DNA of 64,000 nt from a virus, in the IMG/VR virus record IMGVR_UViG_3300045988_097776, one strand, 5' to 3'. The position numbers and the translations under genes were made by a program. How positions within the stretch are numbered: the first letter of the stretch is position 1; each line of letters starts with the position of its first letter. A model generated the notes under the pieces. The model did not search any database, was not told the DNA's origin, and was given only the letters and a program-made list of their open reading frames with translations. This document shows positions 943-27,544 of the stretch, in pieces.

Positions 943-985
943 TATAAAAAAATAAAGACTCCCTTAAAAGGGAGTCTTTATTTAC
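943..985. terminator. bidirectional rho-independent terminator
   Basis: Hairpin AAAGACTCCC-TTAAAA-GGGAGTCTTT with an A-run on one side and a T-run on the other. Confidence 0.6.
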
Positions 986-1305
986 TCAAGGCTAATGCCA
1001 TATCCATCTTGGATAAATGACCCTTCTGGAATATAGATATTATATTCTGTAGACCAAGAGCCAAACAAAACATTTAGGACGGGATTTTTAAAGCGGACAG
1101 TGTTTTCTGTTGCATATGGAGCGTCGGAAGTTTCTTGAATGTAAGTTTTATCTGCTTTAATAGACTTTGAAGTGATGCCTTTATCCGTTTGATATAGGAA
1201 CGAATAGCAAAGTCCATCTTCTGAACTAAAGTTATCACTTAGTGCGATAATATCATAGGTTGCGATAGTTTCTGCTGAATAGGTTTCGGGGGTTTGCACA
1301 TTCAA
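982..1305 (-). CDS. hypothetical protein
   Basis: ORF track, 107 aa. Confidence 0.4.
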   Translation of the reverse strand: MNVQTPETYSAETIATYDIIALSDNFSSEDGLCYSFLYQTDKGITSKSIKADKTYIQETSDAPYATENTVRFKNPVLNVLFGSWSTEYNIYIPEGSFIQDGYGISLE

Positions 1306-1455
1306 TGATGAATACGCATACTACGAGTGATAGAAATGTTAGAAATATAGAGCCAAACATGGAAAAGAGTGAGCATACTATATACTCGATAATGCTGTCA
1401 CAACCTGCGAGCAAAAAGATGAGCAGCATAATACAGAAAGCAATAGGTAGAATAA
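1253..1455 (-). CDS. small membrane protein (2 predicted TM helices)
   Basis: AAGGAGG RBS 9 nt before the ATG (cat at 1453-1455 on plus). Hydrophobic product MLPIILPIAFCIMLLIFLLAG... Confidence 0.45.
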
Positions 1456-1550
1456 TAGGTAGCATTACATTAACCTCCTTTATATATAAATATAATACCA
1501 TATAAAATATACAATTTCAAATGCGGGGGGCATACAACGAATCGTCATAA

Positions 1551-1673
1551 TTTCTCACGGATGCGGGAAAATTTTAGGCAAGAAAATTGCCAGTCCGCAG
1601 TTGTTATATTGTTTATTTTTTTAGAAAAAAGTTTAACAAATTTTAGGACAAAGCGGGAAAATTATGGTATAAT
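1551..1673 (+). promoter_or_regulatory. plus-strand promoter (TGgTATAAT extended -10 near 1664-1672) with two direct GCGGGAAAATT repeats; candidate operator for the RHH protein
   Basis: GATGCGGGAAAATTTTAGG at about 1558 and AAGCGGGAAAATTATGGTATAAT at about 1651, directly upstream of the RHH gene. Confidence 0.4.
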
Positions 1674-1703
1674 AAAAGTGAAATATAGTAGAGAGGTGAT
1701 AAT

Positions 1704-1847
1704 ATGAATTATTCGACTGTTTCTGTTAGATTAACAGAGGAAGAAAAAAAGACTTTAGAAGAGTTTGCGAAGGATAGAGATTTAACTATGTCGCAAGTAA
1801 TTAGAAAAGCAGTAAAAGAATATATAGAAAACCATTCAAACGACTAA
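1704..1847 (+). CDS. ribbon-helix-helix (CopG/Arc-like) transcriptional regulator, 47 aa
   Basis: Product MNYSTVSVRLTEEEKKTLEEFAKDRDLTMSQVIRKAV has the typical RHH beta-strand and helix pattern. RBS GAGAGGTG upstream. Confidence 0.6.
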   Translation: MNYSTVSVRLTEEEKKTLEEFAKDRDLTMSQVIRKAVKEYIENHSND

Positions 1848-1863
1848 AGGAGACGAAAACAAA

Positions 1864-2082
1864 ATGACTAATAATTATAAGGTTTTTACTTTGAAGTTAG
1901 CTAGAAAGCTATGTGAGTTGGGATTTAAGGTTGTTGGAACAGCACCAAATGCTTAGAAACCTTGGTTAAATGTTTATCTTTTTGAAGATACTTAGGAATT
2001 AAGAGAAGCGATTGAGAAATATAAGGGACAAAGTTCGCTATTGGAGGATGATTGCCATGGCAGACAAAAGAAGAAGTCCTAA
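1864..2082 (+). CDS. small conserved phage/plasmid protein (about 72 aa) with 2 in-frame TAG codons
   Basis: Product MTNNYKVFTLKLARKLCELGFKVVGTAPNA[Q]KPWLNVYLFEDT[Q]ELREAIEKYK. Its 3-prime end overlaps the rep gene start. Confidence 0.4.
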
Positions 2083-2446
2083 TTAGCGAACAGTAAGTCA
2101 TATTCATAAAGAGCCTTGTAATACTAATAATATATATGCTAGAATTAATAAGGATGCTTTATTTGCGGCGAGAAGAGAACTTAGTGATGGTGAGTTTTCT
2201 TTATGGATATTTTTTGCTAGTTAGTCAGAGAAGTTGACAGATTATGATTTTGGCCCTACTATTATTGAGAGGGAGTTGGGTATAAAGAAAGCTAAATATA
2301 CAAATGCAATAGAAGGATTGGTAGAAAAAGGGTATTTGATTCCTCTTGAGAAGAAGGGGTATTACGATTTTTACGAAGTTCCTAAAATTATTGACGAGGA
2401 TAAATATAATTATGTCGCTCCTAACGGAGAAAAATTTTCGTTTTAA
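2057..2446 (+). CDS. replication initiator / replisome organiser, RepA_N-like winged-helix, about 129 aa, 2 in-frame TAG
   Basis: GGAGG RBS 9 nt before ATG 2057. Product ...NIYARINKDALFAARRELSDGEFSLWIFFAS[Q]SEKLTDYDFGPTIIERELGIKKAKYTNAIEGLVEKGYLIP resembles Firmicutes plasmid/phage RepA N-terminal domains. An iteron array follows immediately. Confidence 0.55.
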
Positions 2447-2760
2447 TTTTCATGTATTTCTGAGAATACCATGAAATTTCATAGTATTGTGAGAAACCTA
2501 TGAAATCATGTATTTGTTGGAAAGCTATGAAAATTTCATAGTATTCTGACAATACTATGATTTTAATTGAAAGATTTATTTCATGGTATTCCAACAATAC
2601 TATGACATGGTTTTCTGACAATACCATGAAAGTAAATAAAAATCCATTTCATGGTATTCTGACAATACCATAAATATAACATATATAAGATAACAAAGAA
2701 AAGACAACGGCGACTTTTCATGTATTTGTGAGAAAGCGATGGATAGGGAGGATAACCATG
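2447..2760. repeat. iteron array: 8 copies of a 23-bp dyad CATGGTATT-CTGAC-AATACCATG (putative origin or Rep binding sites)
   Basis: Copies start at about 2451, 2479, 2508, 2537, 2582, 2607, 2650 and 2719. Each is an inverted repeat with a 5-nt spacer, and most are followed by AAA. Confidence 0.7.
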
Positions 2761-2907
2761 GAAGATTTTCAGAGGTGGGAGGATATTCAAGGAAGTATAG
2801 ATGGGACGATGGGAGCAAATGATTTAGAAAATCGAATTGAAAAGCTGGAAGAAGGTTTTAGAAAAATCGAATCAAAAATTAAAGGGAAAAGTCAAGAAGA
2901 AGAGTAA
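2758..2907 (+). CDS. small acidic coiled-coil protein, 49 aa
   Basis: ATG at 2758; product MEDFQRWEDIQGSIDGTMGANDLENRIEKLEEGFRKIESKIKGKSQEEE; stop TAA. Confidence 0.4.
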   Translation: MEDFQRWEDIQGSIDGTMGANDLENRIEKLEEGFRKIESKIKGKSQEEE

Positions 2908-3184
2908 TGGGTAGGGTAAGAGAGATTAATAGAGGTAGAGGAAAAGGGATTATTGAATCTATATGAGGATTCGAGTTAGATTACAAGCGAAGCCATAAGA
3001 AAGTGGATAGACTATAGGGAGAATATAAGTGAAATTGGAGAAAATTAGAAGAATAGTAGAGAAAATTGGAGAAATAGTAGAGTTGGGTGCCGATCGGGTC
3101 TAGGTACAACCATCACAACACTCGTCAAAACGATCGTAAACCTAGGCTTCCGCGATTCTTCTACTTCTTTCCTCTTGTTTAATA

Positions 3185-3222
3185 GCAATAAAAAAAGAGA
3201 GGTATCTCTACCTCTCTTTTAT
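3185..3222. terminator. rho-independent terminator
   Basis: GAGAGGTA-TCTC-TACCTCTC hairpin flanked by an A-run and a T-run. Confidence 0.6.
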
Positions 3223-3692
3223 CTAAGCCCTCTCAAGAACTTAGCTACCACATCTTCATCATTGTTGCTCTTGATGGAAACGGAGACCGATTCATTTCGC
3301 ATCTCCTGAATCGCCTTCTCAATTATCTTATCAAGCTCTTCCTCTGTCGCTGCAAGTGCATCATTGATATTATTCATCCCGACAATTCGGGCAGAAATAC
3401 GAGCAGTCTCAGTGATAGCCTCTGCATATTTATTGATAGTATCAGCATCCCACTCAGGGTGAGAAGGAGCATAAATAAGAACTGCAAGCTGTCCGATATG
3501 CTCTGCATCAAGATGCTCATCATCAACAGCATTTAGAAAGTCGCACTCAATTTCATCCAAAGCTTGCTGACGAGCCTTCCGAACCTGATTCTGCTTATTA
3601 AAGACATTTAGAGCATCAGTAAACTCCTTAGCAATATCGTCGAGAGACGCACCGCCATCAAGAGCACATTTAATCATATTAGTATAATCCAT
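3219..3692 (-). CDS. hypothetical protein, 157 aa
   Basis: ORF track. AT-rich promoter (TATAAT-like) plus AAGAGGAA RBS upstream at 3693-3760. Confidence 0.45.
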   Translation of the reverse strand: MDYTNMIKCALDGGASLDDIAKEFTDALNVFNKQNQVRKARQQALDEIECDFLNAVDDEHLDAEHIGQLAVLIYAPSHPEWDADTINKYAEAITETARISARIVGMNNINDALAATEEELDKIIEKAIQEMRNESVSVSIKSNNDEDVVAKFLRGLR

Positions 3693-3699
3693 GGAATAT

Positions 3700-4440
3700 A
3701 TTCCTCTTTTCTTTCCTTTTATATTTATATTATATAATATTATTTTATAAATTGCAACCGATCGGCCCTAGCTTAAAGATCTTTTATTCTAAAATAACTT
3801 CTCTGATTGAGGCATCGACTAGAAAATTCTTAGCTAGAGAATAAGTCTTTTTAATTGTATCTATAAAAGTATAGAAAGGGTGAACATCAAGAAGATTTGC
3901 TGAAAATGAGGCAAATTTTGCTAATTTTTAAGTAATTTTATTAGAAAAATGTGCGTTTTTGCTAGATTTTTAGAGAATTTTCGCTATATTAAGAGAAAAA
4001 CAAGAGGAAAAACCTGCGGACCGATCGGTTTACCTAGCTAAAAGTAGAATTTTCTAGCTATTTTTATTATAAAATCTCGTTATTCCGATCGGCGCCGCAG
4101 AAAAATCTCTCGCTGGTATTTGTTTTTCATAGCAACATCTTTGCTATTGTTAGCTGTATAGGGGATAATGTTAGTCTTATGAACACTTGACAATTTTAAA
4201 TTTTTTTATTATAAAAAATGGACGAGAAAGCCGCTATTGCTGGACCGATCGGGATAAGATAGAAAACCGATCGGGTTATAATATAATTTTGGGAGATTCT
4301 AGACTAAGTTGCGTTATGGCCAACTTGCTATGAAAATTTTGCGCTATGGTCCGATCGGGGAAATTCGGGCCGAGTCGCCCGCGACCGGCCCGCCCGCATA
4401 TTGGGATAAAAAAACCACCCCATTTCTGGGGTGGTTCTTG
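3700..4440. other. 740-bp AT-rich non-coding region with CCGATCGG palindromes and short direct repeats; candidate origin of replication or packaging/regulatory region
   Basis: CCGATCGG at 3758, 4021, 4085, 4245, 4267 and 4351, plus one at 3090 and a CGATCG at 3131. TTTTGCTAnnTTTTTA-like direct repeats at 3911-3990. No ORF on either strand. Confidence 0.5.
4400..4436 (-). terminator. rho-independent terminator (minus strand)
   Basis: CCACCCC-AGAAAT-GGGGTGG followed by TTTTTTT on the minus strand. Confidence 0.65.
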
Positions 4441-4790
4441 TTAGCTTAGAATAACCTGGTATGCCTTGCGGATAATGACTGTTACCATGCGCGGGGGCGT
4501 GTCACAGAGAAAGCGGTCGTTTCTGATAAAATGTCCAATTCCCATATTTTGCCATAAAGTCCGGTTCAAGTCCTCATATCGAGGGGTATTATACTTAGAT
4601 AACCGGATATACCAATCATAGGAAAAAGCACTATCCACAGGCATGGTATAGTCTTTTGCCCGTTTATAATTCCTTGTATGCTCGGCGGCCCGTCTTTCGA
4701 GGTCGTTTGTTGTGCCAATCTTGAGAATATAGCGTCCCTTTACGTCTACATAATGCCCGACGTATAGAAACTCCTTTTCCCGTGTCTGTG
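4441..4790 (-). CDS. GIY-YIG nuclease domain protein (start codon uncertain)
   Basis: The listed 67-aa ORF extends upstream in frame to ...EFLYVGHYVDVKGRYILKIGTTNDLERRAAEH..., which is the GIY-YIG signature. No obvious ATG/GTG/TTG start. Confidence 0.45.
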
Positions 4791-4847
4791 TGCTAACTAT
4801 GGAATACCTCTTTTCTGGTAGGGCTGGGGTAGGCCAGCCCTACCCCG

Positions 4848-5165
4848 TTATTTTTTCGGTTTACGCTTTTGTACAAGCGTTAACTCGAAACTATCCCCAC
4901 CGATAAAAAACGCAATTTGGCGTTCCTTGTTTGTTATGGCAAGGTCAACAATCGAGAATTGACTATTTTTTTCCAAAAAGTCCGCCAGCTCTGCGATTAT
5001 GCCGCCTTTAGTTGCGTTTGGCTTGCGTTGCCGTGGTGTAAATTTGTAGGCGGTAGGGGTTTTTCTTGTGCCAGCATGGGCGAATTTCTGCGCGATTTTC
5101 GCTTTATCGGGCGATAAATCGTATTGAGTTTTTTCACCAGCTTCCACCGCCTTGTCATAGGCCAA
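4848..5165 (-). CDS. hypothetical basic protein, 105 aa
   Basis: ORF track; GC-rich. Confidence 0.4.
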   Translation of the reverse strand: MAYDKAVEAGEKTQYDLSPDKAKIAQKFAHAGTRKTPTAYKFTPRQRKPNATKGGIIAELADFLEKNSQFSIVDLAITNKERQIAFFIGGDSFELTLVQKRKPKK

Positions 5166-5302
5166 TAGCTCCGCCTCCTCCTCTGGTGTCAGTTGGAGAG
5201 GCTTATATCTCGATAACCTCTCGGCGTCAGTGATACGGCTCGATATAGTCTCACCCCCTAAGATAGAGTAGGGCGGGGATTTTCGCCCCGCCCTATACGG
5301 GG

Positions 5303-5704
5303 TTACGCCATCTTAAAGAGAGACTTGCCCTTCTTCTCCTGACAGGTCACACGGCCGTCCAGCTTGAGCATCCGCACAAGGGCGGCGGCCTTCTGAGTGG
5401 AGAAAGCGGCCAGAGAGGGCACAGACTTGAAAATGTCGGTACAGGTCACGCCGTCGGTGTCATCGGGCAGGCCGGCCAGATACTCCATAATCTGCTCCTT
5501 CAGGCTCTCGTTCTCCTGCTGGGTCGGGGTCAGCTTCTTGTCACCGCCGGAGCTATTCTTCTTCCGCAACAGCTCCAGCTCATGGTCAATGACGGTCATG
5601 GCAATCTCCATGGTTGTGCCATGCTTCACCTCCTCACCAGCCAAGAGGGCCTTAATGTCCTCGAAACGCTGGGCCTTAGTGATACGGATTTTCTTCTCGC
5701 TCAT
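5303..5704 (-). CDS. hypothetical protein, 133 aa (GC-rich segment)
   Basis: ORF track; local GC content is well above the window average. Confidence 0.4.
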   Translation of the reverse strand: MSEKKIRITKAQRFEDIKALLAGEEVKHGTTMEIAMTVIDHELELLRKKNSSGGDKKLTPTQQENESLKEQIMEYLAGLPDDTDGVTCTDIFKSVPSLAAFSTQKAAALVRMLKLDGRVTCQEKKGKSLFKMA

Positions 5705-5744
5705 GGTAATACATCCTTTCTGGTTTTTAGGACTGTCCTTGTCC

Positions 5745-6060
5745 TTTGATTATATTGTACCACACTATCGGGAGTTTGTCAAGAGGTTTTTCAAACTTTT
5801 TTCAAGAGCTTTTGCCCTTTACTTGTTTGCCCTCTCTCGTTCCCCTTATAGTGTAACACACTTTGGAGAGTTTGTCAAGCCCTTTTTTATTCACTTTTCA
5901 AGGTTCCTTGCCTTGTTTTCTGTACTTATTATAGCACACTCACAAGGGCTTGTCAAGAGGTTTTTTGAAAGATTTTTGAAAGTTCGCTGTCGCTGTCTGC
6001 CGTTCGTCTCTCTCACTTTCTGTACTTATTGTACCACACCACAAAGCGGATTTCAATTGT
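5745..6060 (-). promoter_or_regulatory. array of 4 tandem near-consensus sigma70 promoters (TTGACA-17-TACAAT/TATAAT, some with TGn) reading leftward
   Basis: Minus strand: TTGACAaactcccgatagtgtggTACAAT at 5752-5780, TTGACAaactctccaaagtgtgTTACACT near 5850-5878, TTGACAagcccttgtgagtgtgcTATAAT near 5929-5956, and TTGAAAtccgctttgtggtgtggTACAAT at 6029-6057. Confidence 0.65.
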
Positions 6061-6096
6061 GAGATCCTCCAAAAGAACGTGATTTTGGGATAGGGT

Positions 6097-6120
6097 TTTT
6101 GTGCAAAATGTTGCACAAAA
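6097..6120. promoter_or_regulatory. perfect 24-bp palindrome TTTTGTGCAAAA-TG-TTGCACAAAA (operator-like) upstream of the promoter array
   Basis: The left half is the exact reverse complement of the right half. The TTGTGCAA motif recurs near other early promoters. Confidence 0.55.
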
Positions 6121-6159
6121 CGGAATCAAATTTTTTGTGCAACATTTACAAGGAAAAAA

Positions 6160-6200
6160 TCGGGTCGCGCCGCCCATGCGCGACCCGCCAAAATATAAAA
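6160..6200 (-). terminator. rho-independent terminator (minus strand)
   Basis: CGGGTCGCGC-ATGG-GCGGCGCGACCCG followed by a T-run on the minus strand. Confidence 0.6.
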
Positions 6201-6227
6201 CAAAAAAAGAAGGCCGAAGCCCTCTTT

Positions 6228-6512
6228 TTATCCGAAAAGGCAGTTATCTAAAAAGTCGAACAGGTGTTCATCCTCGGCGGGGATGGATACCAGTATATCC
6301 CCGTTTTCATCGGGTTCATCATGGCTCCATCCCATACGCTTGATGATTTCAAGCGCCGTGAAAACGGCATCGGGACAAAGGGAAGAAGTATATACAATTC
6401 TTGTTTGCATATTTAACCCTCTTTCTTTGAGTAGAACTGGTCGGCATAAAACTGCATTTCTTTCTGCGTTACCTTGGAAAGCATGGCCTTGATGGTAAAT
6501 ACATCTGGGCAC
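6228..6512 (-). CDS. hypothetical protein, 94 aa
   Basis: ORF track. Confidence 0.4.
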   Translation of the reverse strand: MPRCIYHQGHAFQGNAERNAVLCRPVLLKERGLNMQTRIVYTSSLCPDAVFTALEIIKRMGWSHDEPDENGDILVSIPAEDEHLFDFLDNCLFG

Positions 6513-6592
6513 GTCCGCTCAAGTAGGAAGCGAATAGCCTTATTCTTTAATCCCTGAAACATTTCTTATTTCTCCTTCTACCGGGCGGGGCA

Positions 6593-7417
6593 TTAAGCCC
6601 CGACCCGGATTGTCGGAATCTGCCGCAAACTTGCGGAAAGCTGACGCTGAAAATCTGTCATGGGCGGAAACTCCCGCTTGTTCTCATACAGGGCCTTTCT
6701 CATGGGCTTATGCTGGCGCATACAGTACCACATGATTTCCGCCTCAATCAGAACATCTTCCAGTCCCGTGTGGCTTTCCTCAAAATCAGTGTTGCCGGAG
6801 ATAAACCGCCACACGATTTCCGCAGTCTTGCGGGGAACGCCATTAGCCTGCACATACCCGTGTTCTTCACAGAATTTCTTATAGGTGGGCATCTGGCAAA
6901 TGACATCTTGCATCATTTTCATAATGTCCCAAATTTCCACGCTGTCAAATGGGAACCAATACCGGAATTTGGAACAAGTGACCCAACGCTGAGTGACCCG
7001 AAGGGCGTTATCATCGAAGCGGGCATTATATGCGGCGACCTCCTTAATGCCGTACCGCTCGATAGTGTCCAGCATGGCCTGACGGATTTCATAGGTAGTA
7101 GCCATCTTGCGACTGCCAGCCCGCAATTCCTCTACATACCGGGGGATTTTCCAGTTATAATAGGCCGTCCGCATTAAATCCCGCTCGTCATTGAAAATAT
7201 CCCGATTTACAAAACTTGCGGTTTCGTAAATATTGCCTTTGGTGTCTACGACCGCCCAGCCGCAGTCATATACCAAAACATTTGACATATCCATACGGAC
7301 GCGCTCTGGAGTAATAATTTCCCCATCTTCCCCAATTTCAGCGGGGACAGTCTCGGTTAATGTGTTGGCGGTTTCTGTATCAACCACCAGCACATAATGT
7401 CGGCGTTTATCAATCAT
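6593..7417 (-). CDS. DEDDh 3-prime to 5-prime exonuclease (DnaQ/RNase T-like)
   Basis: Exo I motif VLVVDTETANT, Exo II YNARFD and Exo III HTGLEDV. Length 274 aa. A consensus promoter (TTGACA-17-TATAAT) lies at 7452-7480. Confidence 0.6.
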   Translation of the reverse strand: MIDKRRHYVLVVDTETANTLTETVPAEIGEDGEIITPERVRMDMSNVLVYDCGWAVVDTKGNIYETASFVNRDIFNDERDLMRTAYYNWKIPRYVEELRAGSRKMATTYEIRQAMLDTIERYGIKEVAAYNARFDDNALRVTQRWVTCSKFRYWFPFDSVEIWDIMKMMQDVICQMPTYKKFCEEHGYVQANGVPRKTAEIVWRFISGNTDFEESHTGLEDVLIEAEIMWYCMRQHKPMRKALYENKREFPPMTDFQRQLSASLRQIPTIRVGA

Positions 7418-7590
7418 AATCTATCAAGTCCTTTCTTCTCTTGGTGGTATCATTATAGCACATTTAAGGCTTGGTGTCAAGAGGGATTTTATATTTTTTT
7501 TCTCCGTTGAAAAAGGCGTCGCGATAACCTCTCTCACAAAAGGGACTCTTTACCCTACTCTGGAGAACTTTTTCCTTTCCTCCTGACATG

Positions 7591-7720
7591 ATAATAATAC
7601 CATAGTTTCAGGATAATTGCAAGATGGCATTTTGCACAAGATTTCTGCTTGAAAATTGTGCAACATTACAACAGAAAAAAATGCGGCCCGCGGCGCTCAA
7701 GCGCGGGCCGCTGATTTTCT
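7591..7720 (-). promoter_or_regulatory. promoter-terminator cassette: TTGCAA-17-TATTAT promoter, TTGCACAA/TTGTGCAA dyad motifs and a GC-rich terminator hairpin
   Basis: About 75 bp are nearly identical to 9041-9120. Hairpin GCGGCCCGCGGCGCTCAAGCGCGGGCCGC. Confidence 0.55.
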
Positions 7721-7756
7721 TTATATAAAAAATTCTCCCATTTAGGGAGGATTTTT

Positions 7757-7993
7757 TTAAAACTCTAAAATTGGTGTTTCATCAGGCAGAGCATCTACGC
7801 TGGTGATGGAGATAGATTTATTGTAATCAGTGGAAATTCCTGTCACTCTCTCAATTTCTTTAGTGGCAATATCATACATAATATCGTTTGCAACTGAAGC
7901 CGGGCCTTTTCTATGAATATCGGCCAGCTGTTGGAAGATAGGATGATCGACCTCTAACTCACGCTGGATAGAAATTGAAATTTTAACTCTCAT
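7757..7993 (-). CDS. hypothetical protein, 78 aa
   Basis: ORF track. Confidence 0.4.
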   Translation of the reverse strand: MRVKISISIQRELEVDHPIFQQLADIHRKGPASVANDIMYDIATKEIERVTGISTDYNKSISITSVDALPDETPILEF

Positions 7994-8025
7994 ATAACTT
8001 TTCTTTCTATTGGGAACGCCTTAAA

Positions 8026-8174
8026 TGGCGTTCCCGATTTTGAAGCACTTGGCCGAAGGCGACCAAAGAGAACCGGCCTTGCGCTTGGCATCAGAACGGG
8101 CACGGTCAACATCCTTACCGACACCCACGAACACATGGCCCGCCGCAGTCTTAAAGTAGAAATTCATCATAGTA
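8026..8174 (-). CDS. hypothetical small GC-rich protein, about 49 aa
   Basis: Manual translation: MMNFYFKTAAGHVFVGVGKDVDRARSDAKRKAGSLWSPSAKCFKIGNAI. Confidence 0.35.
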
Positions 8175-8303
8175 AAGCTTCCTTTCTTTTATGAGGGTTA
8201 TCCCCTCTTGATGATTAAATTATACCACAATGCGGTGAGATTGTCAAGAACTTTTTTACGTATTTTCCAGATATGGGGCGGGGATTTCACCCGCCCCTTT
8301 TAT

Positions 8304-8768
8304 TTAGTCCAGATTGTTGATATATTCAATAATGTTTGTAGTTTGGGGGTCTACGGTATCCCCTAAATGCCAGCCGTTTCTAATTTTGCCGTTATCATCA
8401 AAGAGGATAAACGGCGGTTCATAGAAACTACGGAATACACATTTAGCTTTAGTTGTTCCATACGCCACACAATGGCATTTATGGGCCGGAAATTTATGCC
8501 TTGCAAGCCATTCCTTTTTGGCGGCTGTGACTGCTTTCTTATATTCAGGGGGGCTTTCAGGGGGCAACCATGTAATAACTCGAACCTCCCACCCGTTACT
8601 AATTGCGTTTAGAAGCGCATTTCGGAGGGCGTTCATATCCCACATGGGGGCGGCGTCTCGGAATGGGCTGGGGTCTCCATCGCGGAGTTTTTCAAGCCAG
8701 TTGGGGACTGCGTATAGATCTGCAATTGTCCCGTCCATATCAAAGCAGAGCATTTTTTTAGTTATCAT
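8304..8768 (-). CDS. HAD-superfamily phosphatase (5-prime nucleotidase / deoxyribonucleotidase-like)
   Basis: N-terminal CFDMDGTIAD (the DxDGT motif). Length 154 aa. Consensus promoter at 8791-8819. Confidence 0.55.
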   Translation of the reverse strand: MITKKMLCFDMDGTIADLYAVPNWLEKLRDGDPSPFRDAAPMWDMNALRNALLNAISNGWEVRVITWLPPESPPEYKKAVTAAKKEWLARHKFPAHKCHCVAYGTTKAKCVFRSFYEPPFILFDDNGKIRNGWHLGDTVDPQTTNIIEYINNLD

Positions 8769-8796
8769 ATATATAACCTCCTTTTGTTTTATTATA

Positions 8797-9021
8797 CTAC
8801 CTGTTGCCTATCTTGTCAACAAGTTTTTCAAAGAAATTTTTATGCCGATATACCTTATAAGGCATTGACGTATAATCCACATAAATTAGAGGGTCGCGCA
8901 AAAGAATAGCTTGCATATAGATCCCATAATTCTCTGGGGTGGTAGTACCACCAAATTGGCGGCGGTAGATTTCAGCCACAGTTAAACACTCATTAGGCCG
9001 AATAAACTTTGAAGGTTTCAT
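8797..9021 (-). CDS. hypothetical protein, 74 aa
   Basis: ORF track. Promoter TTGCAA-17-TATTAT at about 9041-9075, a duplicate of the 7600 cassette. Confidence 0.4.
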   Translation of the reverse strand: MKPSKFIRPNECLTVAEIYRRQFGGTTTPENYGIYMQAILLRDPLIYVDYTSMPYKVYRHKNFFEKLVDKIGNR

Positions 9022-9204
9022 TTAGTGTCCCTCCTTCTTTCTGTACTAATAATACCATAATTTAAGGATAATTGCAAGATGACATTTTGCACAAGATTTC
9101 AAGTCAAAAATTGTGCAGAACTTACAAACAAGAAAACTCGGCGCGCTGTGAGCGTCAGCGCGCCGTCGAAATTTTGGTATAAAAAAAGAGGGCCGAAGCC
9201 CTCT

Positions 9205-9684
9205 TTAATTTTCTGCAAATTGAGCTAGAAATTGCGCAGAAAGTCGAACCATATCATGCGCTGATTCTTTATCGTTTTTATAGCAAATAAAGCCGATTAC
9301 CTCACCTTCTGCAATAATAGGAGTAACAAACAACGATTTTCCCTTCCATTCAGTACCCCAATTACGAATATTGAACCATTCATCCGGGGTCTTTGACATT
9401 CCGAAGGGGCGAGGGCCGCACAAAAGACTTGAATTATCAAAAACCGATGCTAAAATGCCGTTAATGCTTAAAACTTTTTGAATATGTGCGGCCTGAGGAG
9501 CAAAAGAAGATAGTAGGGAATATTTCTTGAAAACCACCCCGCCATCTTCAATAAAGATTTCTAGCGGGTCGCCTTCCCGAATATTCATATTCCGACGAAT
9601 TTCCTTAGGAATTACTACCCGGCCGAGATCATCAATGCGCCGCACAATGCCAGTTACTTTCATTTTTTTTATTAGAGAGGGCAA
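9205..9684 (-). CDS. SpoVT/AbrB-family transcriptional regulator (swapped-hairpin N-domain plus GAF-like C-domain)
   Basis: N-terminus MKVTGIVRRIDDLGRVVIPKEIRRNMNIREGDPLEI is the AbrB/MazE/SpoVT signature. Length 159 aa. Terminator at 9170-9205. Confidence 0.7.
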   Translation of the reverse strand: MPSLIKKMKVTGIVRRIDDLGRVVIPKEIRRNMNIREGDPLEIFIEDGGVVFKKYSLLSSFAPQAAHIQKVLSINGILASVFDNSSLLCGPRPFGMSKTPDEWFNIRNWGTEWKGKSLFVTPIIAEGEVIGFICYKNDKESAHDMVRLSAQFLAQFAEN

Positions 9685-9714
9685 GGCTATTGCTTGCCCT
9701 CTCTACCTCCTTCC

Positions 9715-10110
9715 TTAAAACTCCTTGCGCAGTTCCTCAAGCATGGCTGTTAAGGTGTTCATATCTCCACCCATTTCCAATTTGACGCACATGAGCCGGG
9801 TCTGCTCGTTAATCCATGTGTTAATCTCTGCGATTTCATCATCCATTTTTTCCTTGGCCGGAGTATAAATGCCGCAAGTGCAGGTCTGGATGACATTCTC
9901 GCAATATCTGGAAGTCTTATAGCCCTTAGCCTGCATTTCCGCCTGGATAGTATCGCCCAGCTCATTGGCCGACTTGACGATAGCCTCCTTAAAAGCCTCC
10001 AGCGCGTCGAACTCTGGCTGATACCTCTCCCGGATAGCCGCCTCCTTACAGGCAGAAATCTTGCGAACCTCGTCACGAACATATTCTTCAATTCTCTTAG
10101 TAACACGCAT
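9715..10110 (-). CDS. hypothetical protein, 131 aa
   Basis: ORF track. Consensus promoter TTGACA-17-TATACT at 10176-10204 and terminator at 9680-9715. Confidence 0.45.
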   Translation of the reverse strand: MRVTKRIEEYVRDEVRKISACKEAAIRERYQPEFDALEAFKEAIVKSANELGDTIQAEMQAKGYKTSRYCENVIQTCTCGIYTPAKEKMDDEIAEINTWINEQTRLMCVKLEMGGDMNTLTAMLEELRKEF

Positions 10111-10344
10111 TTCTAAAAACTCCCTTTCTGTTTTAATTTGAGAGGTTTTACTCGTTTCCCCTCTTTACATTTAATAGTATAGCAGATTTCGGGAGAAGTG
10201 TCAATCGTCAAAATGCACAACATTTGCAAACATATTTTGTTGAAACTGCTAATCATAGAAAATTCGGATCGCGCCAACCCTGCGCGATCCGCCCAATATT
10301 ATGCAAATAAAAAAGAAGCTCCCGGAAAACCGGGAGCATTTCTT

Positions 10345-10584
10345 TTACATCATAGGGAAATCAATGCCAATTTCGTTAGCTCTGCGGTCAGCCTCTTCGT
10401 CGAAGACCGCCTTCAAAATAGTGGCCGCGTCATCGGGAGTACAGGTATCTTCACGCAGGAACTTCCCCAAAGACTGAACCAAAGCGGAGTCGGCCGAACT
10501 CCGGTCTATCAAACGCATTGCTGTATGAAGAGCAATCAGACTGTCCCTATCTTCCTCGGTCATCTTGGGCATCTTGATAGTCAT
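10345..10584 (-). CDS. hypothetical protein, 79 aa
   Basis: ORF track. Promoter TTGACA-17-TATAAT at 10635-10663. Terminator GCTCCCGG-AAAA-CCGGGAGC at 10318-10345. Confidence 0.45.
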   Translation of the reverse strand: MTIKMPKMTEEDRDSLIALHTAMRLIDRSSADSALVQSLGKFLREDTCTPDDAATILKAVFDEEADRRANEIGIDFPMM

Positions 10585-10838
10585 AACATACTTCCTTTCT
10601 GGTTTTATAGAGTTTTCCTTCTCTTGATGGTATTATTATATCATAAAGGGTTGGATTTGTCAACCCTTTATATCGGAGTATTTATAATATATCCAAACAT
10701 TATAATTTCGGCGGCGAAAAGTATAGCAAGCAGGAAATGGTTTTTTATTATAGCGGTCACATACTGGATAGTCAGGCAAATGGCAAGAACAATTATGATA
10801 AAAGTGGTCATGCTAGTTCCTCCTGCGGTAGAGAGGGA

Positions 10839-11078
10839 TTATACCCTCTCTACCTCGATAATTTCCATGTCGAAATTTTCCCAGCAGGCCCCAAGGAGCA
10901 TATCATGCCGCAGGTCGTTTTCGCTTTCGTAGTCCATATCTTCCAGAATGTCCTGCCAGTTATCGGGATTATATTGCTTTTTCAGCCAGTCCCAACCGGC
11001 GCCACGAGCCAGCCGCAGGTCATCAGATACACAGATAATATTCTCACGATTATCAGCCATAACCACATAGCTTTTCAT
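10839..11078 (-). CDS. hypothetical acidic protein, 79 aa
   Basis: ORF track. Promoter TTGACT-17-TATACT near 11121-11160. Confidence 0.4.
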   Translation of the reverse strand: MKSYVVMADNRENIICVSDDLRLARGAGWDWLKKQYNPDNWQDILEDMDYESENDLRHDMLLGACWENFDMEIIEVERV

Positions 11079-11324
11079 TTTCTTTTACTCCCTTTCTTGA
11101 GGGCTTTTGTTCTCCCCTCTTGATGGTTTAAGTATATCAGAATGAGAGAGAAAAGTCAAGCGATTTTGGGAAATTTCTTTCCGTCAATTTCACCAATAAA
11201 TCGAGCCAAAATTTGTGCAAATTACCTCTTGACAAAAAATTCCGGCCGCTGCGCTCATGCGCGGCCGGCTGAACAATATATTTTGAATTGGAAAAGAAAT
11301 TCCTCCCATTTTGGGAGGAAAATC

Positions 11325-11462
11325 TCAATCTACATATTCTCGATTTAAAACTTTTACAACCTCTTCAGGTTTACGTCGAGACCGGAAAAGAGCATCTTCA
11401 TAGGAATAACCAGAGATATTGTCGGTCGAGCCATTTTCAAGCAAAATCTCAAATTCATACAT
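11325..11462 (-). CDS. hypothetical small protein, about 45 aa (internal start of the listed ORF)
   Basis: A promoter -10 and TSS fall inside the listed ORF. AAGGAAG RBS before the internal ATG (MYEFEILLENG...). Confidence 0.3.
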   Translation of the reverse strand: MYEFEILLENGSTDNISGYSYEDALFRSRRKPEEVVKVLNREYVD

Positions 11463-11518
11463 ATCTCTCAACTTCCTTTCTTTTGATAACTTAATTTTAA
11501 CATAAGAATTTCGGGAAG

Positions 11519-11755
11519 TCAATCGGTACTTTCAACAATTTTCATTCCATTTGCTTGTATAATTCGCATAGCTTCTTCAAGAGAAGTATTGTCAACGGAG
11601 CCACAGTCGATACAAATATATTTTCTGCCATCCTTTACCATAGTAGTGAAATAATATTCTTGACCAGAAACAAGGCCCATCTACTCTCGTAGTCTTACGG
11701 GAATCATGATGCGCCCACTTGAATCCAATTTCCTTGAGAAAGTAGTTTCTTGCAT
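11519..11755 (-). CDS. AbrB/MazE-family DNA-binding protein, 78 aa, with 1 in-frame TAG
   Basis: Manual translation: MQETTFSRKLDSSGRIMIPVRLRE[Q]MGLVSGQEYYFTTMVKDGRKYICIDCGSVDNTSLEEAMRIIQANGMKIVESTD. The GRIMIP motif is the swapped-hairpin signature. Confidence 0.55.
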
Positions 11756-11843
11756 TTTGCTAAATAAATTCTAGTGACCTAGGTTCGTGCGAAAAACGAC
11801 TCCATCACGGGAATCGCCGATTTGTAACAATCGGAGGGAATAA

Positions 11844-11960
11844 TTACCACTCGCAAGGCATTTTCTGGCAGAACTGAGCCATAGGACAATTCTTACAAGA
11901 ATCCTAGTTCAAACAGAACTCCAGAATGACCGCAAGAGCTTTCAGCACTTCTAAGGTCAT
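11844..11960 (-). CDS. small Cys-rich protein, 38 aa, 1 in-frame TAG
   Basis: AAGGAG RBS. Product MTLEVLKALAVILEFCLN[Q]DSCKNCPMAQFCQKMPCEW. Confidence 0.35.
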
Positions 11961-12135
11961 TAGAAAACTCCTTTCTTTATTTTTCTATATATATTATAAA
12001 ATATTTTTTTAAAAAAAGCAAGGACTGACTTATGCCAGCTCCAGCCTCTGTAACCAGATAAGGTGATATTTCCCCAGTCTTGCCAAAACTGTTCCGTATC
12101 CCTTATTAGTCCAAACAGTGGAACCAATAGGATAT

Positions 12136-12387
12136 TCACGCGGAAGTCTCTCGATAGTCATTGATAATCCCCTTTTCTGTAAAGAATCCGACAAGATGTT
12201 CTGCTGCACTGGACTTATGCGGAGTTATCAACAACCACGCACCGCGAAGATTATCAATAGTCGATAAAGACCAGTCCGCGCCCATCTGACTAATTAAGCA
12301 CTCGAAACTTGCTCGATCCTCAAGAGAGTTAAACGAAACTACATATTTTCCCATGCGGAAATCGACCTCCATAGAATTTTTTATCAT
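12136..12387 (-). CDS. hypothetical protein, 83 aa; a coupled 43-aa ORF follows at 12004-12135
   Basis: ORF track. ATGA start/stop overlap at 12133-12138 suggests translational coupling with the downstream small ORF MTIERLPREYPIGSTVWTNKGYGTVLARLGKYHLIWLQRLELA. Confidence 0.4.
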   Translation of the reverse strand: MIKNSMEVDFRMGKYVVSFNSLEDRASFECLISQMGADWSLSTIDNLRGAWLLITPHKSSAAEHLVGFFTEKGIINDYRETSA

Positions 12388-12426
12388 GGGGAGTGGAAGT
12401 CATAGACCTCCACTCCCGCAGGTTTC

Positions 12427-12666
12427 TTATGCGTTAATGTAGATATTAACGCCACCTTCTTCTCTCATTTCAATCTCAGTCACCTGCTTCTTGAACAGGG
12501 CGCTGAGGTCATCGCCATAAAAGTCACCGCCGAGCTGGAGCTTCCATTCCTTGTCAAACCGGAAATGTGCGCCGGTATTGCTGTCGATTACCTGAATAGC
12601 CGCATCCTCTTCCAGACAGAAAGAGTATTGCCGGAACAAAATCACAACGTCTTTGAAGCACACCAT
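12427..12666 (-). CDS. hypothetical protein, 79 aa
   Basis: ORF track. Promoter TTGACA-17-TATATT at about 12705-12745. Confidence 0.4.
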   Translation of the reverse strand: MVCFKDVVILFRQYSFCLEEDAAIQVIDSNTGAHFRFDKEWKLQLGGDFYGDDLSALFKKQVTEIEMREEGGVNIYINA

Positions 12667-12922
12667 TTCTTTTACTTCCTTTCAAATTCTTTTTGTGGTC
12701 TGTCTCTCTGGACAAGTATAATATACCATACCCACAAAGGAATGTCAAGCGATTTCGGGAGAAAAATTCTCGGCAGATTGCACAAACTTTTGGCCATATA
12801 ATTGTTGAAACTGCCGAACAAACAAAAATTCGGGCCGCGGCGCACGCTGGCGGCCCGGCGAAAAGTCAATATGGGAAAGTGCACAAAAATATCCGGCAAT
12901 CTTTGTGTAGATTACCGGATAG

Positions 12923-13066
12923 AATATTAAAACATCACAGTAAAGAAGTTATACTCACTATGCTGTGGATTTGGATAGCTGTTATCTGCTACTATGTCAG
13001 CCCAGCTCAAAGCAATCCAGAGAAGGAGAGCGGCGCAAAGGCCGCCTCCTATATACCGTAGCACTC
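12923..13066 (-). CDS. small membrane protein, about 47 aa
   Basis: Manual translation: MRVLRYIGGGLCAALLLWIALSWADIVADNSYPNPQHSEYNFFTVMF. Start overlaps the stop of the upstream gene. Confidence 0.3.
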
Positions 13067-13453
13067 TCATACCGCAGGCTCCTTCCCCAGAAGGTCATAC
13101 CGTCCAGGGATTTCGGCATTAAGCCTATCCCATTCTTTGGCAGTTACCCTGTCATACTCATTATAATAGTTATCCCGAATGATATAAAGCTGTTCTGTGG
13201 TGTCCTTATCCAGAGCGGCCTTATACTCGTCAAGAGAGGCAGGACGAGTGTGAAGCTTGCTGTTGATATACCGTGCATTGATAAAGGCCCAATGTGGCAT
13301 GACGGCCTTAGAGATAGCATTAAAAGCGTCTAAGTCAAGGATGATACCATCATCCACAGCGGCCGCCTTCACATTCATGGAGTAACGGAGAACACGCACG
13401 AACTCAGGCTTATTAAAGGTGGGATTGGTGTAATACTTGATGAAGTTAGACAT
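13067..13453 (-). CDS. hypothetical protein, 128 aa
   Basis: ORF track; AAGGAT RBS. Confidence 0.45.
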   Translation of the reverse strand: MSNFIKYYTNPTFNKPEFVRVLRYSMNVKAAAVDDGIILDLDAFNAISKAVMPHWAFINARYINSKLHTRPASLDEYKAALDKDTTEQLYIIRDNYYNEYDRVTAKEWDRLNAEIPGRYDLLGKEPAV

Positions 13454-13508
13454 ATCTTTTATCCTTTCTCCCCGTATAGCCGTTAGGTCAGCTTCTTGTG
13501 GTATATGG

Positions 13509-13772
13509 TTACTTGATAGCTTCGCCGGTAGACAGGTCTACAATCCAATAGTCAGGATTGACAAGCTCATGGTCTACTCTCCATCTTGCGTGTGCAAAAG
13601 TAGACGGCTCATAGTATCGCATTTTGTCACCCACTAAAACCTGCAACTGATACCTCATAATACCGCCTTCTTTCTTTTGATTATTATAACCCTGCCTTGC
13701 CTTGGGTTTTGCAAGGCAGGGTTTATAAACTACTGCTGATTGAGTTCTTTTTGCTGGTCTTTCGTTGCCCAA
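13509..13772 (-). CDS. hypothetical protein, 87 aa
   Basis: ORF track. Confidence 0.35.
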   Translation of the reverse strand: MGNERPAKRTQSAVVYKPCLAKPKARQGYNNQKKEGGIMRYQLQVLVGDKMRYYEPSTFAHARWRVDHELVNPDYWIVDLSTGEAIK

Positions 13773-14170: not shown

Positions 14171-14592
14171 GTCTTTTAAGACTTGTCAATACTTTTTTTG
14201 AAAATTTTTAATTTTCAAGGTACATTGAGTTTTGCCCTGTCCTCTACTGGACAAGTCCAGTTTACACCCGTTTGCCCTGTTTGTCAATAGTTTTTTGAAA
14301 TTTCTTTCTCTCTCTTTTGCACAAAATAAACATTGTTCAACTGTGCAATTTGCATAAATCCTTTACGCGCGCGTATTCCTTTAGGGCGTGGCTTTTTACT
14401 TTCATACTTTAATGAGTGAAAGAGGCTGACTACACTTCAGCACTTTACCATGTGAAAGGGGAGGGTGTATTTTGGGAAAAACTGGAAATTTTTTCGCAAA
14501 TTTGTTCTGCCACGCCATTTCAAAATCTAAATCGTACTTTCAATCTCAATAACGAAAAAAAGATGAAAGGCTAAACTTTTAACCTTTCATCT

Positions 14593-14715: not shown

Positions 14716-14759
14716 CATTCCCCTTAAATTTTATAATAAGCCATTTTCCATTCTATCCC

Positions 14760-27542: not shown

Positions 27543-27544
27543 TT

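What the first reader, a model, noticed from the sequence alone, without database searches (positions are those of the whole stretch)
1551..2910. Plasmid-like replication module (RHH regulator, RepA_N-like initiator with TAG codons, eight 23-bp iterons) embedded in the opposite orientation within the early region
The early region is otherwise read leftward, but this plus-strand cassette encodes a CopG/Arc-type RHH protein, a small conserved protein, and a winged-helix RepA_N/replisome-organiser-like protein. Direct GCGGGAAAATT repeats lie in the promoter of the RHH gene. Eight regularly spaced copies of the dyad CATGGTATT-CTGAC-AATACCATG begin directly after the rep stop. This is the classic theta-plasmid arrangement of rep followed by iterons. 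It suggests that the element can replicate as a plasmid (a phage-plasmid lifestyle), or that it uses a plasmid-type origin for phage replication.
Basis: partly seen in the sequence, partly recalled or inferred. Interest (0 to 1): 0.7.

Follow-up and report, generated by a model that had tools for sequence, protein, structure and literature searches.

The report
Phage iteron origin with mini-initiator
A large gut phage that reads the stop codon TAG as glutamine carries a small rightward operon (regulator, small partner protein, 129-residue DNA-binding initiator-like protein) followed by eight palindromic binding sites. This is most likely the phage's replication origin, an ordinary kind of element in an unusually stripped-down, recoded form.

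Summary
On the + strand, between leftward early genes, lie an RHH gene (1704-1847), a DUF5659 gene (1864-2082, 2 TAG), a winged-helix gene (2057-2446, 2 TAG), eight 23-bp dyads (2451-2741) and a 49-codon ORF. The dyads occur nowhere else in the 64 kb (0.15 expected by chance). Their spacing is irregular (24-69 bp), not regular.

The winged-helix protein matches no initiator family on its own. However, 604 distant relatives exist. 69 of 104 aligned relatives hit PHROG "replication initiation protein" families. The AlphaFold model (pLDDT 89) is closest to primosomal DnaB, the RepA_N N-terminal domain and the DnaD N-terminal domain.

In six lineages checked, the relatives carry their own lineage-specific dyad iterons, inside or beside the gene. 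Five have DUF5659 directly upstream; a sixth has an unrecognised small ORF there. In a ~20-kb temperate phage the pair sits in the replication-module slot.

Most likely this is an iteron origin with a minimal initiator. RepA_N membership is not shown by sequence. A phage-plasmid lifestyle is unsupported: no par or integrase genes were seen, but only part of the genome was examined. TAG makes up 40% of Gln-type codons in the cassette, 0% in neighbouring early genes and 51% in late genes.

The parts
1645..1673 (+). Promoter-like site of the cassette: AGGACA, 17-nt spacer, TATAAT preceded by TG (extended -10)
   Evidence: 10 of 12 matches, TG present. The core is invariant in L002, L003 and L005. 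Function is inferred.
1563..1573 (+). GCGGGAAAATT, copy 1 (conserved in relatives)
1653..1663 (+). GCGGGAAAATT, copy 2, inside the promoter spacer. It is not conserved: GCAGAAAAATT in L002, ACCGGAAAATT in L003.
1638..1650 (+). AAATTTTAGGACA, candidate RHH operator overlapping the -35. A second copy, AAATTTTAGGCA, lies at 1569-1580. L003 and L005 carry four extra inverted copies (TGTCCAAAATTTTCTAA) upstream.
   Evidence: (family D19). Binding is inferred, not tested.
1704..1847 (+). Ribbon-helix-helix protein, 47 aa, no TAG codon in the window
   Evidence: Pfam DUF6290 2.2e-11 and RHH_1 1e-8. PHROG CopG/Arc-like repressors.
1864..2082 (+). DUF5659 protein, 72 aa, TAG codons at 1954-1956 and 1993-1995. 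It overlaps the next gene by 26 nt.
   Evidence: Pfam DUF5659 1.1e-6. A DUF5659 gene sits directly upstream of the winged-helix homologue in L007, L008, L019/L020 and L021/L022.
2057..2446 (+). Winged-helix initiator-like protein, 129 aa, TAG codons at 2084-2086 (Gln10) and 2222-2224 (Gln56). It has a DNA-binding domain and a short tail ending in F-S-F, with no C-terminal domain.
2447..2741 (.). Array of eight 23-bp dyad iterons, consensus (TTT)CATGGTATT-CTGAC-AATACCATG(AAA)
   Evidence: The array is 84.7% identical to L003/L005, like the coding genes (82-84%), whereas the flanks are only 9-52% alignable.
2451..2473 (.). Iteron R1: CATGTATTTCTGAGAATACCATG
2480..2502 (.). Iteron R2: CATAGTATTGTGAGAAACCTATG
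2507..2529 (.). Iteron R3: CATGTATTTGTTGGAAAGCTATG
2537..2559 (.). Iteron R4: CATAGTATTCTGACAATACTATG
2582..2604 (.). Iteron R5: CATGGTATTCCAACAATACTATG. It abuts R6 at 24-bp spacing. The same abutting pair is seen in L006.
2606..2628 (.). Iteron R6: CATGGTTTTCTGACAATACCATG
2650..2672 (.). Iteron R7: CATGGTATTCTGACAATACCATA
2661..2700 (.). Least stable 40-mer near the array (nearest-neighbour dG -41.5, about the 99th percentile of the window). It lies between R7 and R8 and is a candidate unwinding element.
   Evidence: The sequence is largely invariant in relatives. The role is inferred.
2719..2741 (.). Iteron R8: CATGTATTTGTGAGAAAGCGATG, just upstream of the ribosome-binding site of the next ORF
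2758..2907 (+). 49-aa ORF with a strong Shine-Dalgarno sequence and no family match. It is poorly conserved in L003 and L005.

Best explanation
This is an iteron-type replication origin of the phage together with its origin-binding protein.

Proposed mechanism:
1. A sigma-70-type promoter (1645-1673) drives an operon of four genes: RHH, DUF5659, the winged-helix protein and a small ORF.
2. The RHH protein probably autoregulates the promoter.
3. The 129-residue winged-helix protein has a fold like the N-terminal domains of DnaD and RepA_N. It probably binds as dimers to the eight 23-bp dyads that start 4 nt after its stop codon.
4. The loaded array probably opens the adjacent AT-rich stretch (about 2661-2700) and recruits a helicase or primosome. 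Recruitment could go through the conserved DUF5659 partner and/or the short C-terminal F-x-F tail, because the protein has no C-terminal effector domain.
5. Both DUF5659 and the initiator need TAG read as Gln, so full-length proteins appear only when suppression is active.

Shown here: the anatomy, the family relationships, the fold, the co-occurrence of gene and iterons across lineages, and the TAG usage.

Inferred: DNA binding, origin function, the recruitment route and the timing.
For: (1) Eight dyads cluster in 290 bp and occur nowhere else in 64 kb, against 0.15 expected.

(2) A phmmer search finds 604 relatives that share residues ~5-115 at their N-terminus. Of 104 aligned relatives:
- 69 match phrog_270 'replication initiation protein';
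- 45 match phrog_186 'DnaD-like helicase loader';
- 34 match phrog_428;
- 33 match phrog_678 'O-like';
- 54 match Pfam HTH_36.

The top viral match is a 'RepA-like replication initiator'.

(4) Each relative examined has its own dyad repeats inside or next to the gene:
- L006: CATGTACCTCTGAGAGGATTATG, about 8 copies;
- L007: CCCTTATTACTAAAAGTAATAAG, 6 copies every 23 bp;
- L008;
- L019: with AT-rich 9-mers;
- L021: AAAAGTGGGAAAAACCCACTTTC, 3 copies.
These fit the semi-palindromic, poly-A-centred iterons described for RepA_N replicons (PMC7145576).

(5) In a ~20-kb temperate siphophage, DUF5659 and the winged-helix gene lie between the lysogeny and terminase modules. No helicase or primase is present there.

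(6) The non-coding array is as conserved as the coding sequence, while the neighbouring sequence is not.

(7) Substitutions between relatives create A-C mismatches in the dyads. Selection is therefore on half-sites, not on hairpins.
Against: - The window protein alone gives only sub-threshold matches: HTH_36 17.3 bits against a cut-off of 25, and phrog_270 E=0.04.
- The protein lacks the C-terminal domain that known initiators use to recruit helicases.
- Spacing of the sites is irregular.
- There is no DnaA box nearby.
- No helicase, primase or polymerase was found in the window or in the flanks examined.
- The PHROG labels are annotations, not experiments.
- The AT-rich tract is modest for a genome that is 66% A+T.
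Confidence: 0.65

Rival explanations
1. Transcriptional switch. The winged-helix protein is a repressor or activator. The eight dyads are operators that control read-through into the downstream ORF, or the collision with the convergent leftward genes. No role in replication.
For: - The generic winged-helix fold is shared with MarR, GntR and Fur regulators (7 of 104 relatives match MarR_2).
- The protein is a DNA-binding domain only.
- The last site abuts the ribosome-binding site of ORF 2758-2907.
- Some units contain a -35-like CTGACA.
Against: - Eight sites at one locus, and none at any other promoter in 64 kb.
- In relatives the repeats lie inside the coding linker, followed by AT-rich 9-mers. 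That arrangement is pointless for an operator but typical of an origin inside a rep gene.
- The PHROG initiator families hit by relatives.
- The replication-module position in L021.
- The presence of the family in integrative mobile elements.
Confidence: 0.15
2. Plasmid-prophage replicon. The biochemistry is the same, but the module maintains the phage as a low-copy plasmid in lysogens. The downstream iterons would act in copy control, like incA of P1.
For: - An RHH gene followed by an initiator operon resembles plasmid copG-rep operons. The L006 RHH gives a weak RepB-RCR_reg hit.
- The fold is close to a plasmid RepA_N N-terminal domain.
- No integrase was seen in the sequence scanned.
- Placing the iterons after the rep gene recalls P1 incA (established knowledge).
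Against: - No ParA/ParB/ParM/TubZ-type gene or Walker-A ParA-like ORF is present in the window.
- The initiator needs TAG suppression, which is unexpected for a gene that must work in a standard-code lysogen.
- Relatives with the module are integrating phages or islands, or ordinary phage genomes.
- Tens of kb of the genome were not examined, so absence is not proven.
Confidence: 0.12
3. Partition centromere. The dyad array is a centromere-like site bound by a small winged-helix (TubR-like) or RHH (ParR/ParG-like) adaptor.
For: Centromeres of type II and type III systems are arrays of short repeats bound by small RHH or winged-helix proteins (established knowledge). Both protein types are encoded in the cassette.
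Against: - No motor NTPase gene lies next to the cassette or anywhere in the window.
- In relatives the repeats lie inside the winged-helix gene, with no RHH nearby.
- Relatives match initiator families, not TubR or ParR.
Confidence: 0.04
4. Structured nucleic acid. The palindromes act as RNA or single-stranded DNA hairpins, for example as processing sites, attenuators or a single-strand origin.
For: Each unit can form a 9-12-bp stem with a 5-nt loop.
Against: - Substitutions between the window and L003/L005 are not compensatory. Examples are R5 and R6, where A4 is opposite C20.
- No T-run follows the stems.
- There is no Rfam match.
- Units in relatives differ in sequence but keep the half-site architecture together with the protein.
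Confidence: 0.02

Closest known systems
RepA_N plasmid and satellite initiators (pSK41/pTZ2162 RepA; Vibrio PLE RepA)
   Same: - The iterons are semi-palindromic and lie in or beside the gene. In relatives they converge on a poly-A tract, as described for RepA_N (PMC7145576).
- Relatives are linked to recombinases in chromosomal islands, as noted for RepA_N in PMC7145576.
   Different: - There is no Pfam RepA_N match in the window protein or in 104 relatives.
- The profile-profile probability is only 13%.
- The window protein has no C-terminal domain.
- The iterons lie after the stop codon and centre on CTGAC, not poly-A.
- A conserved DUF5659 partner gene is present.
Lambda O and replisome organisers of Firmicute phages (e.g. 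SPP1 G38P), from established knowledge
   Same: - An N-terminal winged-helix domain binds dyad-symmetric iterons that are embedded in, or adjacent to, its own gene, next to an AT-rich segment.
- Relatives hit PHROGs labelled 'O-like' and 'replication initiation protein'.
   Different: - There is no C-terminal domain for a helicase loader.
- No P/G39P-like loader or helicase gene follows.
- Pfam Phage_rep_O and Phage_rep_org_N are not matched.
N-terminal domains of primosomal DnaD and DnaB of Bacillota
   Different: The DnaD N-terminal domain does not bind DNA sequence-specifically (PMC7145576). The protein here is paired with a specific repeat array.
copG-repB type operons of small plasmids (RHH copy-control repressor upstream of the initiator), from established knowledge
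   Same: The RHH gene comes first in the operon, ahead of the initiator gene.
   Different: The initiator is a winged-helix iteron binder, not a rolling-circle nuclease. RHH binding sites were not demonstrated.

Membership tests
RepA_N (Pfam PF06970) | Sequence match to the RepA_N N-terminal domain model | tested here: not met
   No RepA_N hit for the window protein at E<=1, nor for any of 104 relatives at E<=0.01.
RepA_N (Pfam PF06970) | Profile-profile homology to bona fide RepA_N N-terminal domains | tested here: inconclusive
   hhalign of A4 against a 28-sequence RepA_N profile built from pSK41 RepA homologues gives probability 13% and E=0.0022. The 79 aligned columns are in the equivalent topology. 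Against the single pSK41 RepA sequence, E=0.18.
RepA_N (Pfam PF06970) | DnaD-NTD-like winged-helix fold | tested here: met
   [not shown]
RepA_N (Pfam PF06970) | Variable, host-specific C-terminal domain | tested here: not met
   The protein is 129 aa. The homology domain covers residues ~5-115, and only a 15-residue tail follows.
RepA_N (Pfam PF06970) | Semi-palindromic iterons within or next to the rep gene | tested here: met
   Eight dyads start 4 nt after the stop codon. Relatives have in-gene dyads centred on poly-A.
Rep_3 iteron initiators (Pfam PF01051) | Sequence match to the Rep_3 model | tested here: not met
   [not shown]
HTH_36 (Pfam PF13730) | Score above the gathering cut-off | tested here: inconclusive
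   The window protein scores 17.3 bits against a cut-off of 25. 54 of 104 relatives match at E<=0.01, best 8.7e-10.
Phage replication initiators (PHROG 270/428/678) and DnaD-like helicase loader (PHROG 186) | Significant profile match | tested here: inconclusive
   The window protein gives E=0.04 and 0.08. Among relatives, 69, 34, 33 and 45 of 104 match, best 1.5e-11.
Ribbon-helix-helix CopG/Arc regulators | Pfam RHH_1 or DUF6290 above the cut-off | tested here: met
   DUF6290 44.2 bits (cut-off 27); RHH_1 35.2 bits (cut-off 20.5).
DUF5659 | Pfam score above the cut-off | tested here: met
   28.9 bits against a cut-off of 23.6, with TAG read as Gln.
Iteron-type origin (generic) | Initiator binds the repeats and replication starts there | not testable with these tools
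   Needs EMSA or footprinting, and origin mapping.
Iteron-type origin (generic) | Adjacent AT-rich unwinding element | tested here: inconclusive
   2661-2700 has dG -41.5, about the 99th percentile of the window, but other intergenic tracts are less stable. Relatives show AT-rich 9-mer repeats after their iterons.
Phage-plasmid | Partition system (ParA/ParB, ParM/ParR or TubZ/TubR) | tested here: not met
   None was recognised in the early-region and flank ORFs scanned, about 20 of them. There is no ParA-type Walker-A ORF in the window. Only part of the genome was seen.
Phage-plasmid | Circular episome without host flanks and without an integrase | not testable with these tools
   The IMG/VR contigs are 96-164 kb and could not be read in full. 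Walking reached only tRNA arrays.

The most novel reading that the evidence does not exclude
The origin is gated by the genetic-code switch. The RHH regulator is readable in the standard code in this window. The initiator (TAG at the family-invariant Gln10) and its DUF5659 partner yield only short truncated peptides (9 and 30 residues) until the phage's TAG suppression is active. Firing of this origin would therefore be coupled to the switch from the standard to the recoded translation state, either as a late or second replication mode or as a lock against replication in a standard-code, lysogen-like state.

In addition, the minimal initiator may recruit the replisome through an SSB-tail-like aromatic C-terminus. 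About a quarter of the listed relatives end in Phe, as F-x-F or D-L-P-F.
Probability: 0.2. Interest if true: 0.65.

Novelty: new variant of a known kind. Interest (0 to 1): 0.4.

Why it matters
- It gives a concrete, testable origin and initiator for a lineage of large, uncultured, TAG-recoded gut phages whose replication is unknown.
- It links DUF5659, which no paper in the searched library mentions, to a widespread phage replication module.
- It defines a large, uncharacterised initiator family with a RepA_N-like architecture: an N-terminal winged helix, iterons in or beside the gene, and a variable tail.
- The cassette's late-gene-like TAG use inside a TAG-free early region is a clean case for asking whether recoding times DNA replication.
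- Otherwise the element is an ordinary kind of thing: an iteron origin.

Tried and rejected
- blastn of 1400-3300 and tblastn of the protein against INPHARED phages gave no match. tblastn against PLSDB plasmids gave only insignificant Nostoc HTH hits.
- Rfam and tRNA scans of the window found nothing.
- A sequence search of the PDB with the family profile returned only chance winged-helix hits. DUF5659 against the PDB gave nothing.
- The first AF2 run, with 3 sequences, was unusable (pLDDT 51). It was redone with 104 sequences.
- There are no DnaA boxes near the array.
- Walking along the IMG/VR contigs to find polymerase, par or integrase genes reached only tRNA arrays, and the stored stretches ended.
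- Cluster look-ups gave no source names for relatives.
- My early impression that the array is more conserved than the coding sequence was wrong. It is equal.
- A toxin-antitoxin reading of RHH plus DUF5659 was rejected, because DUF5659 pairs with the winged-helix gene even where no RHH gene was called next to the module (L008).
- The hairpin reading was rejected because substitutions are non-compensatory.
- GC skew follows transcription direction and does not inform on the origin.
Full report
CONTEXT

The window is part of a large phage with about 34% G+C. Its rightward block, 17.7-56.8 kb, gives long ORFs only if TAG is read through. Total length of ORFs of at least 100 codons rises from 34 kb to 82 kb, and one ORF of 2905 codons contains 103 TAG codons.

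Close relatives are IMG/VR contigs of 96-164 kb. The large terminase is 44-51% identical to those of large Enterococcus and Geobacillus siphophages and of phage Phass-1. This points to a Bacillota host. Phass-1 is a described TAG-recoded, tRNA-rich phage (PMC10607447).

THE OBSERVATION

Genes to the left (271-1501) and right (3219-17600) of the cassette are on the - strand. The + strand cassette contains, in order:
- A promoter-like site, AGGACA-17-TGgTATAAT, at 1645-1673.
- An RHH gene, 1704-1847 (DUF6290 and RHH_1 above cut-off).
- A DUF5659 gene, 1864-2082, with two TAG codons.
- A 129-codon gene, 2057-2446, with two TAG codons. It overlaps the DUF5659 gene by 26 nt.
- Eight 23-bp dyads at 2451, 2480, 2507, 2537, 2582, 2606, 2650 and 2719.
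- A 49-codon ORF, 2758-2907.

A degenerate 23-mer with up to 2 mismatches hits only these eight places in 64 kb, against 0.15 expected. Spacing is 29, 27, 30, 45, 24, 44 and 69 bp, so the repeats are not regular.

The 11-mer GCGGGAAAATT is present twice. Its second copy is mutated even in a 99%-identical relative, so it is not a convincing operator. A better candidate is AAATTTTAGG(A)CA, which overlaps the -35. L003 and L005 carry four extra inverted copies of it upstream.

TAG MEANS GLN

- Codon 10 of the winged-helix gene is TAG. The same position is a nearly invariant Gln in the family, encoded as CAG in L006.
- Codon 56 is TAG in the window but a standard Gln codon in L003.
- The RHH gene of L003 has TAG where the window has CAA.

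Share of TAG among TAG+CAA+CAG codons:

| Gene class | TAG / total | Share |
|---|---|---|
| 20 leftward early genes | 0 / 73 | 0% |
| Cassette | 4 / 10 | 40% |
| 15 late genes | 262 / 514 | 51% |

With 4 TAG among 83 codons in the early and cassette classes combined, the chance that all four fall in the cassette's ten is 210/1,837,620 = 1.1e-4. This is my arithmetic on the counts. The cassette is therefore a recoded island in a standard-code early region. Borges et al. report that replication genes are 'variably' recoded in such phages (10.1101/2021.08.26.457843), so this is notable but not unprecedented.

WHAT THE 129-RESIDUE PROTEIN IS

Alone it gives only sub-threshold hits: HTH_36 E=0.004, phrog_270 'replication initiation protein' E=0.04, and phrog_186 'DnaD-like helicase loader' E=0.08. 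The word-indexed search found only five close relatives.

An exhaustive phmmer search found 604 relatives. Homology is confined to residues ~5-115, at the N-terminus of proteins of 100-380 aa. Among 104 aligned relatives:
- 54 match HTH_36, and none matches RepA_N, Rep_3 or Phage_rep_O.
- 69, 45, 34 and 33 match PHROGs 270, 186, 428 and 678 respectively. These are all labelled replication initiator, O-like or DnaD-like.

I ran a direct test of RepA_N homology. I built a RepA_N N-terminal-domain profile from pSK41 RepA homologues and compared it with the family profile. The result was probability 13% and E=0.0022 over 79 topologically equivalent columns. The protein is therefore RepA_N-like in fold and architecture, but membership is not established.

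THE REPEATS BELONG TO THE PROTEIN

Every relative I could read carries its own dyad repeats in or beside the gene.
- L006 (49% identical protein): the same cassette order, with an unrecognised small ORF in the DUF5659 position, and about eight units of CATGTACCTCTGAGAGGATTATG that begin inside the 3' end of the gene. The outer CATG and the central CTGAG are kept, and the inner half-site has changed.
- L007: six units of CCCTTATTACTAAAAGTAATAAG every 23 bp, inside the linker-coding part of the gene, followed by AT-rich 9-mer repeats.
- L008: three to four units in the linker.
- L019, a 132-kb pig-gut phage: five to six units of CCTTACCATAAAAAATGATAAGG plus AT-rich 9-mers.
- L021: three units of AAAAGTGGGAAAAACCCACTTTC at 23-bp spacing.

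These are the 'semi-palindromic direct repeats converging on a poly-A tract' described for RepA_N origins (PMC7145576).

Between the window and ~80%-identical relatives the non-coding array is 84.7% identical. This equals the coding genes (82-84%). The following ORF and spacer are only 39-52% alignable. Substitutions are not compensatory within dyads, which argues for protein half-sites rather than hairpins.

CONTEXT OF RELATIVES

- DUF5659 lies directly upstream in L007, L008, L019/L020 and L021/L022.
- An RHH-like gene precedes the pair in L006 and L021.
- In L021, a ~20-kb temperate siphophage, the order is: integrase, repressor-like gene, RHH, DUF5659, winged-helix gene, small ORFs, terminase. 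That position is the canonical replication slot, and no helicase or primase is present there.
- Other relatives sit in integrative islands. One lies between two integrases, next to a UvrD plus OLD/TOPRIM pair. Another lies with a resolvase, ArdC and a Tn916-type integrase.

MECHANISM

Best explanation, confidence about 0.65: an iteron origin with a minimal initiator.
- Shown: the anatomy, family, fold, gene-iteron linkage and TAG usage.
- Inferred: dimers bind the dyads; the array opens the low-stability tract 2661-2700; and DUF5659 and/or the C-terminal tail recruit a helicase or primosome.
- About a quarter of the listed family members end in Phe, as F-x-F or as an SSB-like D-L-P-F. This is a lead, not a result.
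- Weaknesses: there is no C-terminal domain, the spacing is irregular, there are no DnaA boxes, and no replisome genes were seen in the window or flanks.

RIVALS

- A pure transcriptional switch: 0.15.
- A plasmid-prophage replicon: 0.12.
- A partition centromere: 0.04.
- Hairpins: 0.02.

For the phage-plasmid idea I found no partition gene, integrase or ParA-type Walker-A ORF in the sequence examined. However, tens of kb of the genome remain unread (about 40 kb on my coordinate estimate for one 114-kb relative contig). Walking along the relatives reached only a large tRNA array.

VERDICT

It is a variant of a known kind of system: a RepA_N / lambda-O-like architecture reduced to the DNA-binding domain, with the iterons just outside the gene, a conserved DUF5659 partner and dependence on TAG read-through. 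Interest is moderate, 0.4.

Noticed in passing
window 3090-4358: The palindrome CCGATCGG occurs 7 times, all in this 1.3-kb, largely ORF-free stretch right of the cassette, against 0.23 expected. All 8 CGATCG sites of the window lie here. The cluster is conserved in position in L001-L005 and in the distant L006 (4 copies). Function unknown.
   Followed up: partly
window 17677-56815 (+ strand): The late block is readable only with TAG as a sense codon. One ORF of 2905 codons has 103 TAG codons. The four ORFs at 25781-28140 (which I take to include the major capsid gene), the putative tail gene 31285-32679 and ORF 34237-34767 have none.
   Followed up: partly
window 57959-61820 (- strand): A diversity-generating-retroelement-like set: reverse transcriptase 57959-59176 (RVT_1 1.3e-16), a 164-aa possible Avd at 59616-60110 (no Pfam hit), and a 542-aa repeat-rich candidate target at 60192-61820. 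The template and variable repeats were not looked for.
   Followed up: partly
window 4000-16000: A higher-GC block (0.40-0.46 against ~0.34) of TAG-free leftward genes, with repeated ~70-140-bp intergenic elements (about 4361-4443, 6156-6227, 7590-7696, 9047-9211). The genes include two AbrB/MazE-type proteins, a DnaQ-like exonuclease, PTH2 (14760-15197) and a microbial-type PARG (15182-15946).
   Followed up: partly
window 4361-4394: Relative to L001-L005 the window lacks about 890 bp. That segment holds two small leftward genes in L001 and lies between copies of a ~34-bp (up to ~80-bp) repeat, so this looks like a deletion between direct repeats.
   Followed up: no
window 16505-17329 (- strand): A FolD-like methylenetetrahydrofolate dehydrogenase/cyclohydrolase gene with 7 in-frame TAG codons. 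Together with the adjacent leftward ORF 17283-17621 (3 TAG), it is the main TAG-containing leftward gene I tabulated in an otherwise largely TAG-free leftward block; three small leftward ORFs there (11519-11755, 13655-14107, 14579-14881) carry one TAG each.
   Followed up: partly
window 982-1501 (- strand): Two ORFs (1253-1501 and 982-1305) correspond to one 172-aa membrane protein in L002. This indicates a frameshift or indel near 1290-1305 in the window.
   Followed up: no
L009-L015 (relatives, ~10-20 kb left of the cassette): An array of 23-27 tRNA genes, and in one relative a tmRNA, interspersed with GIY-YIG endonuclease genes and transcribed like the early genes. No CTA-anticodon suppressor was found in the parts read. 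The window itself has no tRNA.
   Followed up: partly
L003/L005 about 9440-9545: Four direct repeats, TGTCCAAAATTTTCTAA, are inserted upstream of the RHH promoter. They are absent from the window. They are inverted copies of the AAATTTTAGGACA motif at the promoter and are likely RHH operators.
   Followed up: no
L016/L017 7001-11470: A 289-aa relative of the winged-helix protein sits in a chromosomal island between two integrase genes, next to a UvrD-helicase plus OLD/TOPRIM ATPase pair (Gabija-like defence genes).
   Followed up: no
family of P0001-P0153: About a quarter of the listed family members end in Phe. Many end in F-x-F and six end in (D/E/P)-L-P-F, resembling the SSB C-terminal tip. 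Linker peptides are repetitive because iterons are embedded in the coding sequence.
   Followed up: partly
L002 4853-6025: The left flank of the closest relative encodes an adenylosuccinate-synthetase-like protein, an RNA-ligase-like protein, a MoxR-type ATPase and a vWA protein. These are absent from L003-L005 at that position. Identifications are by eye or PHROG only.
   Followed up: no
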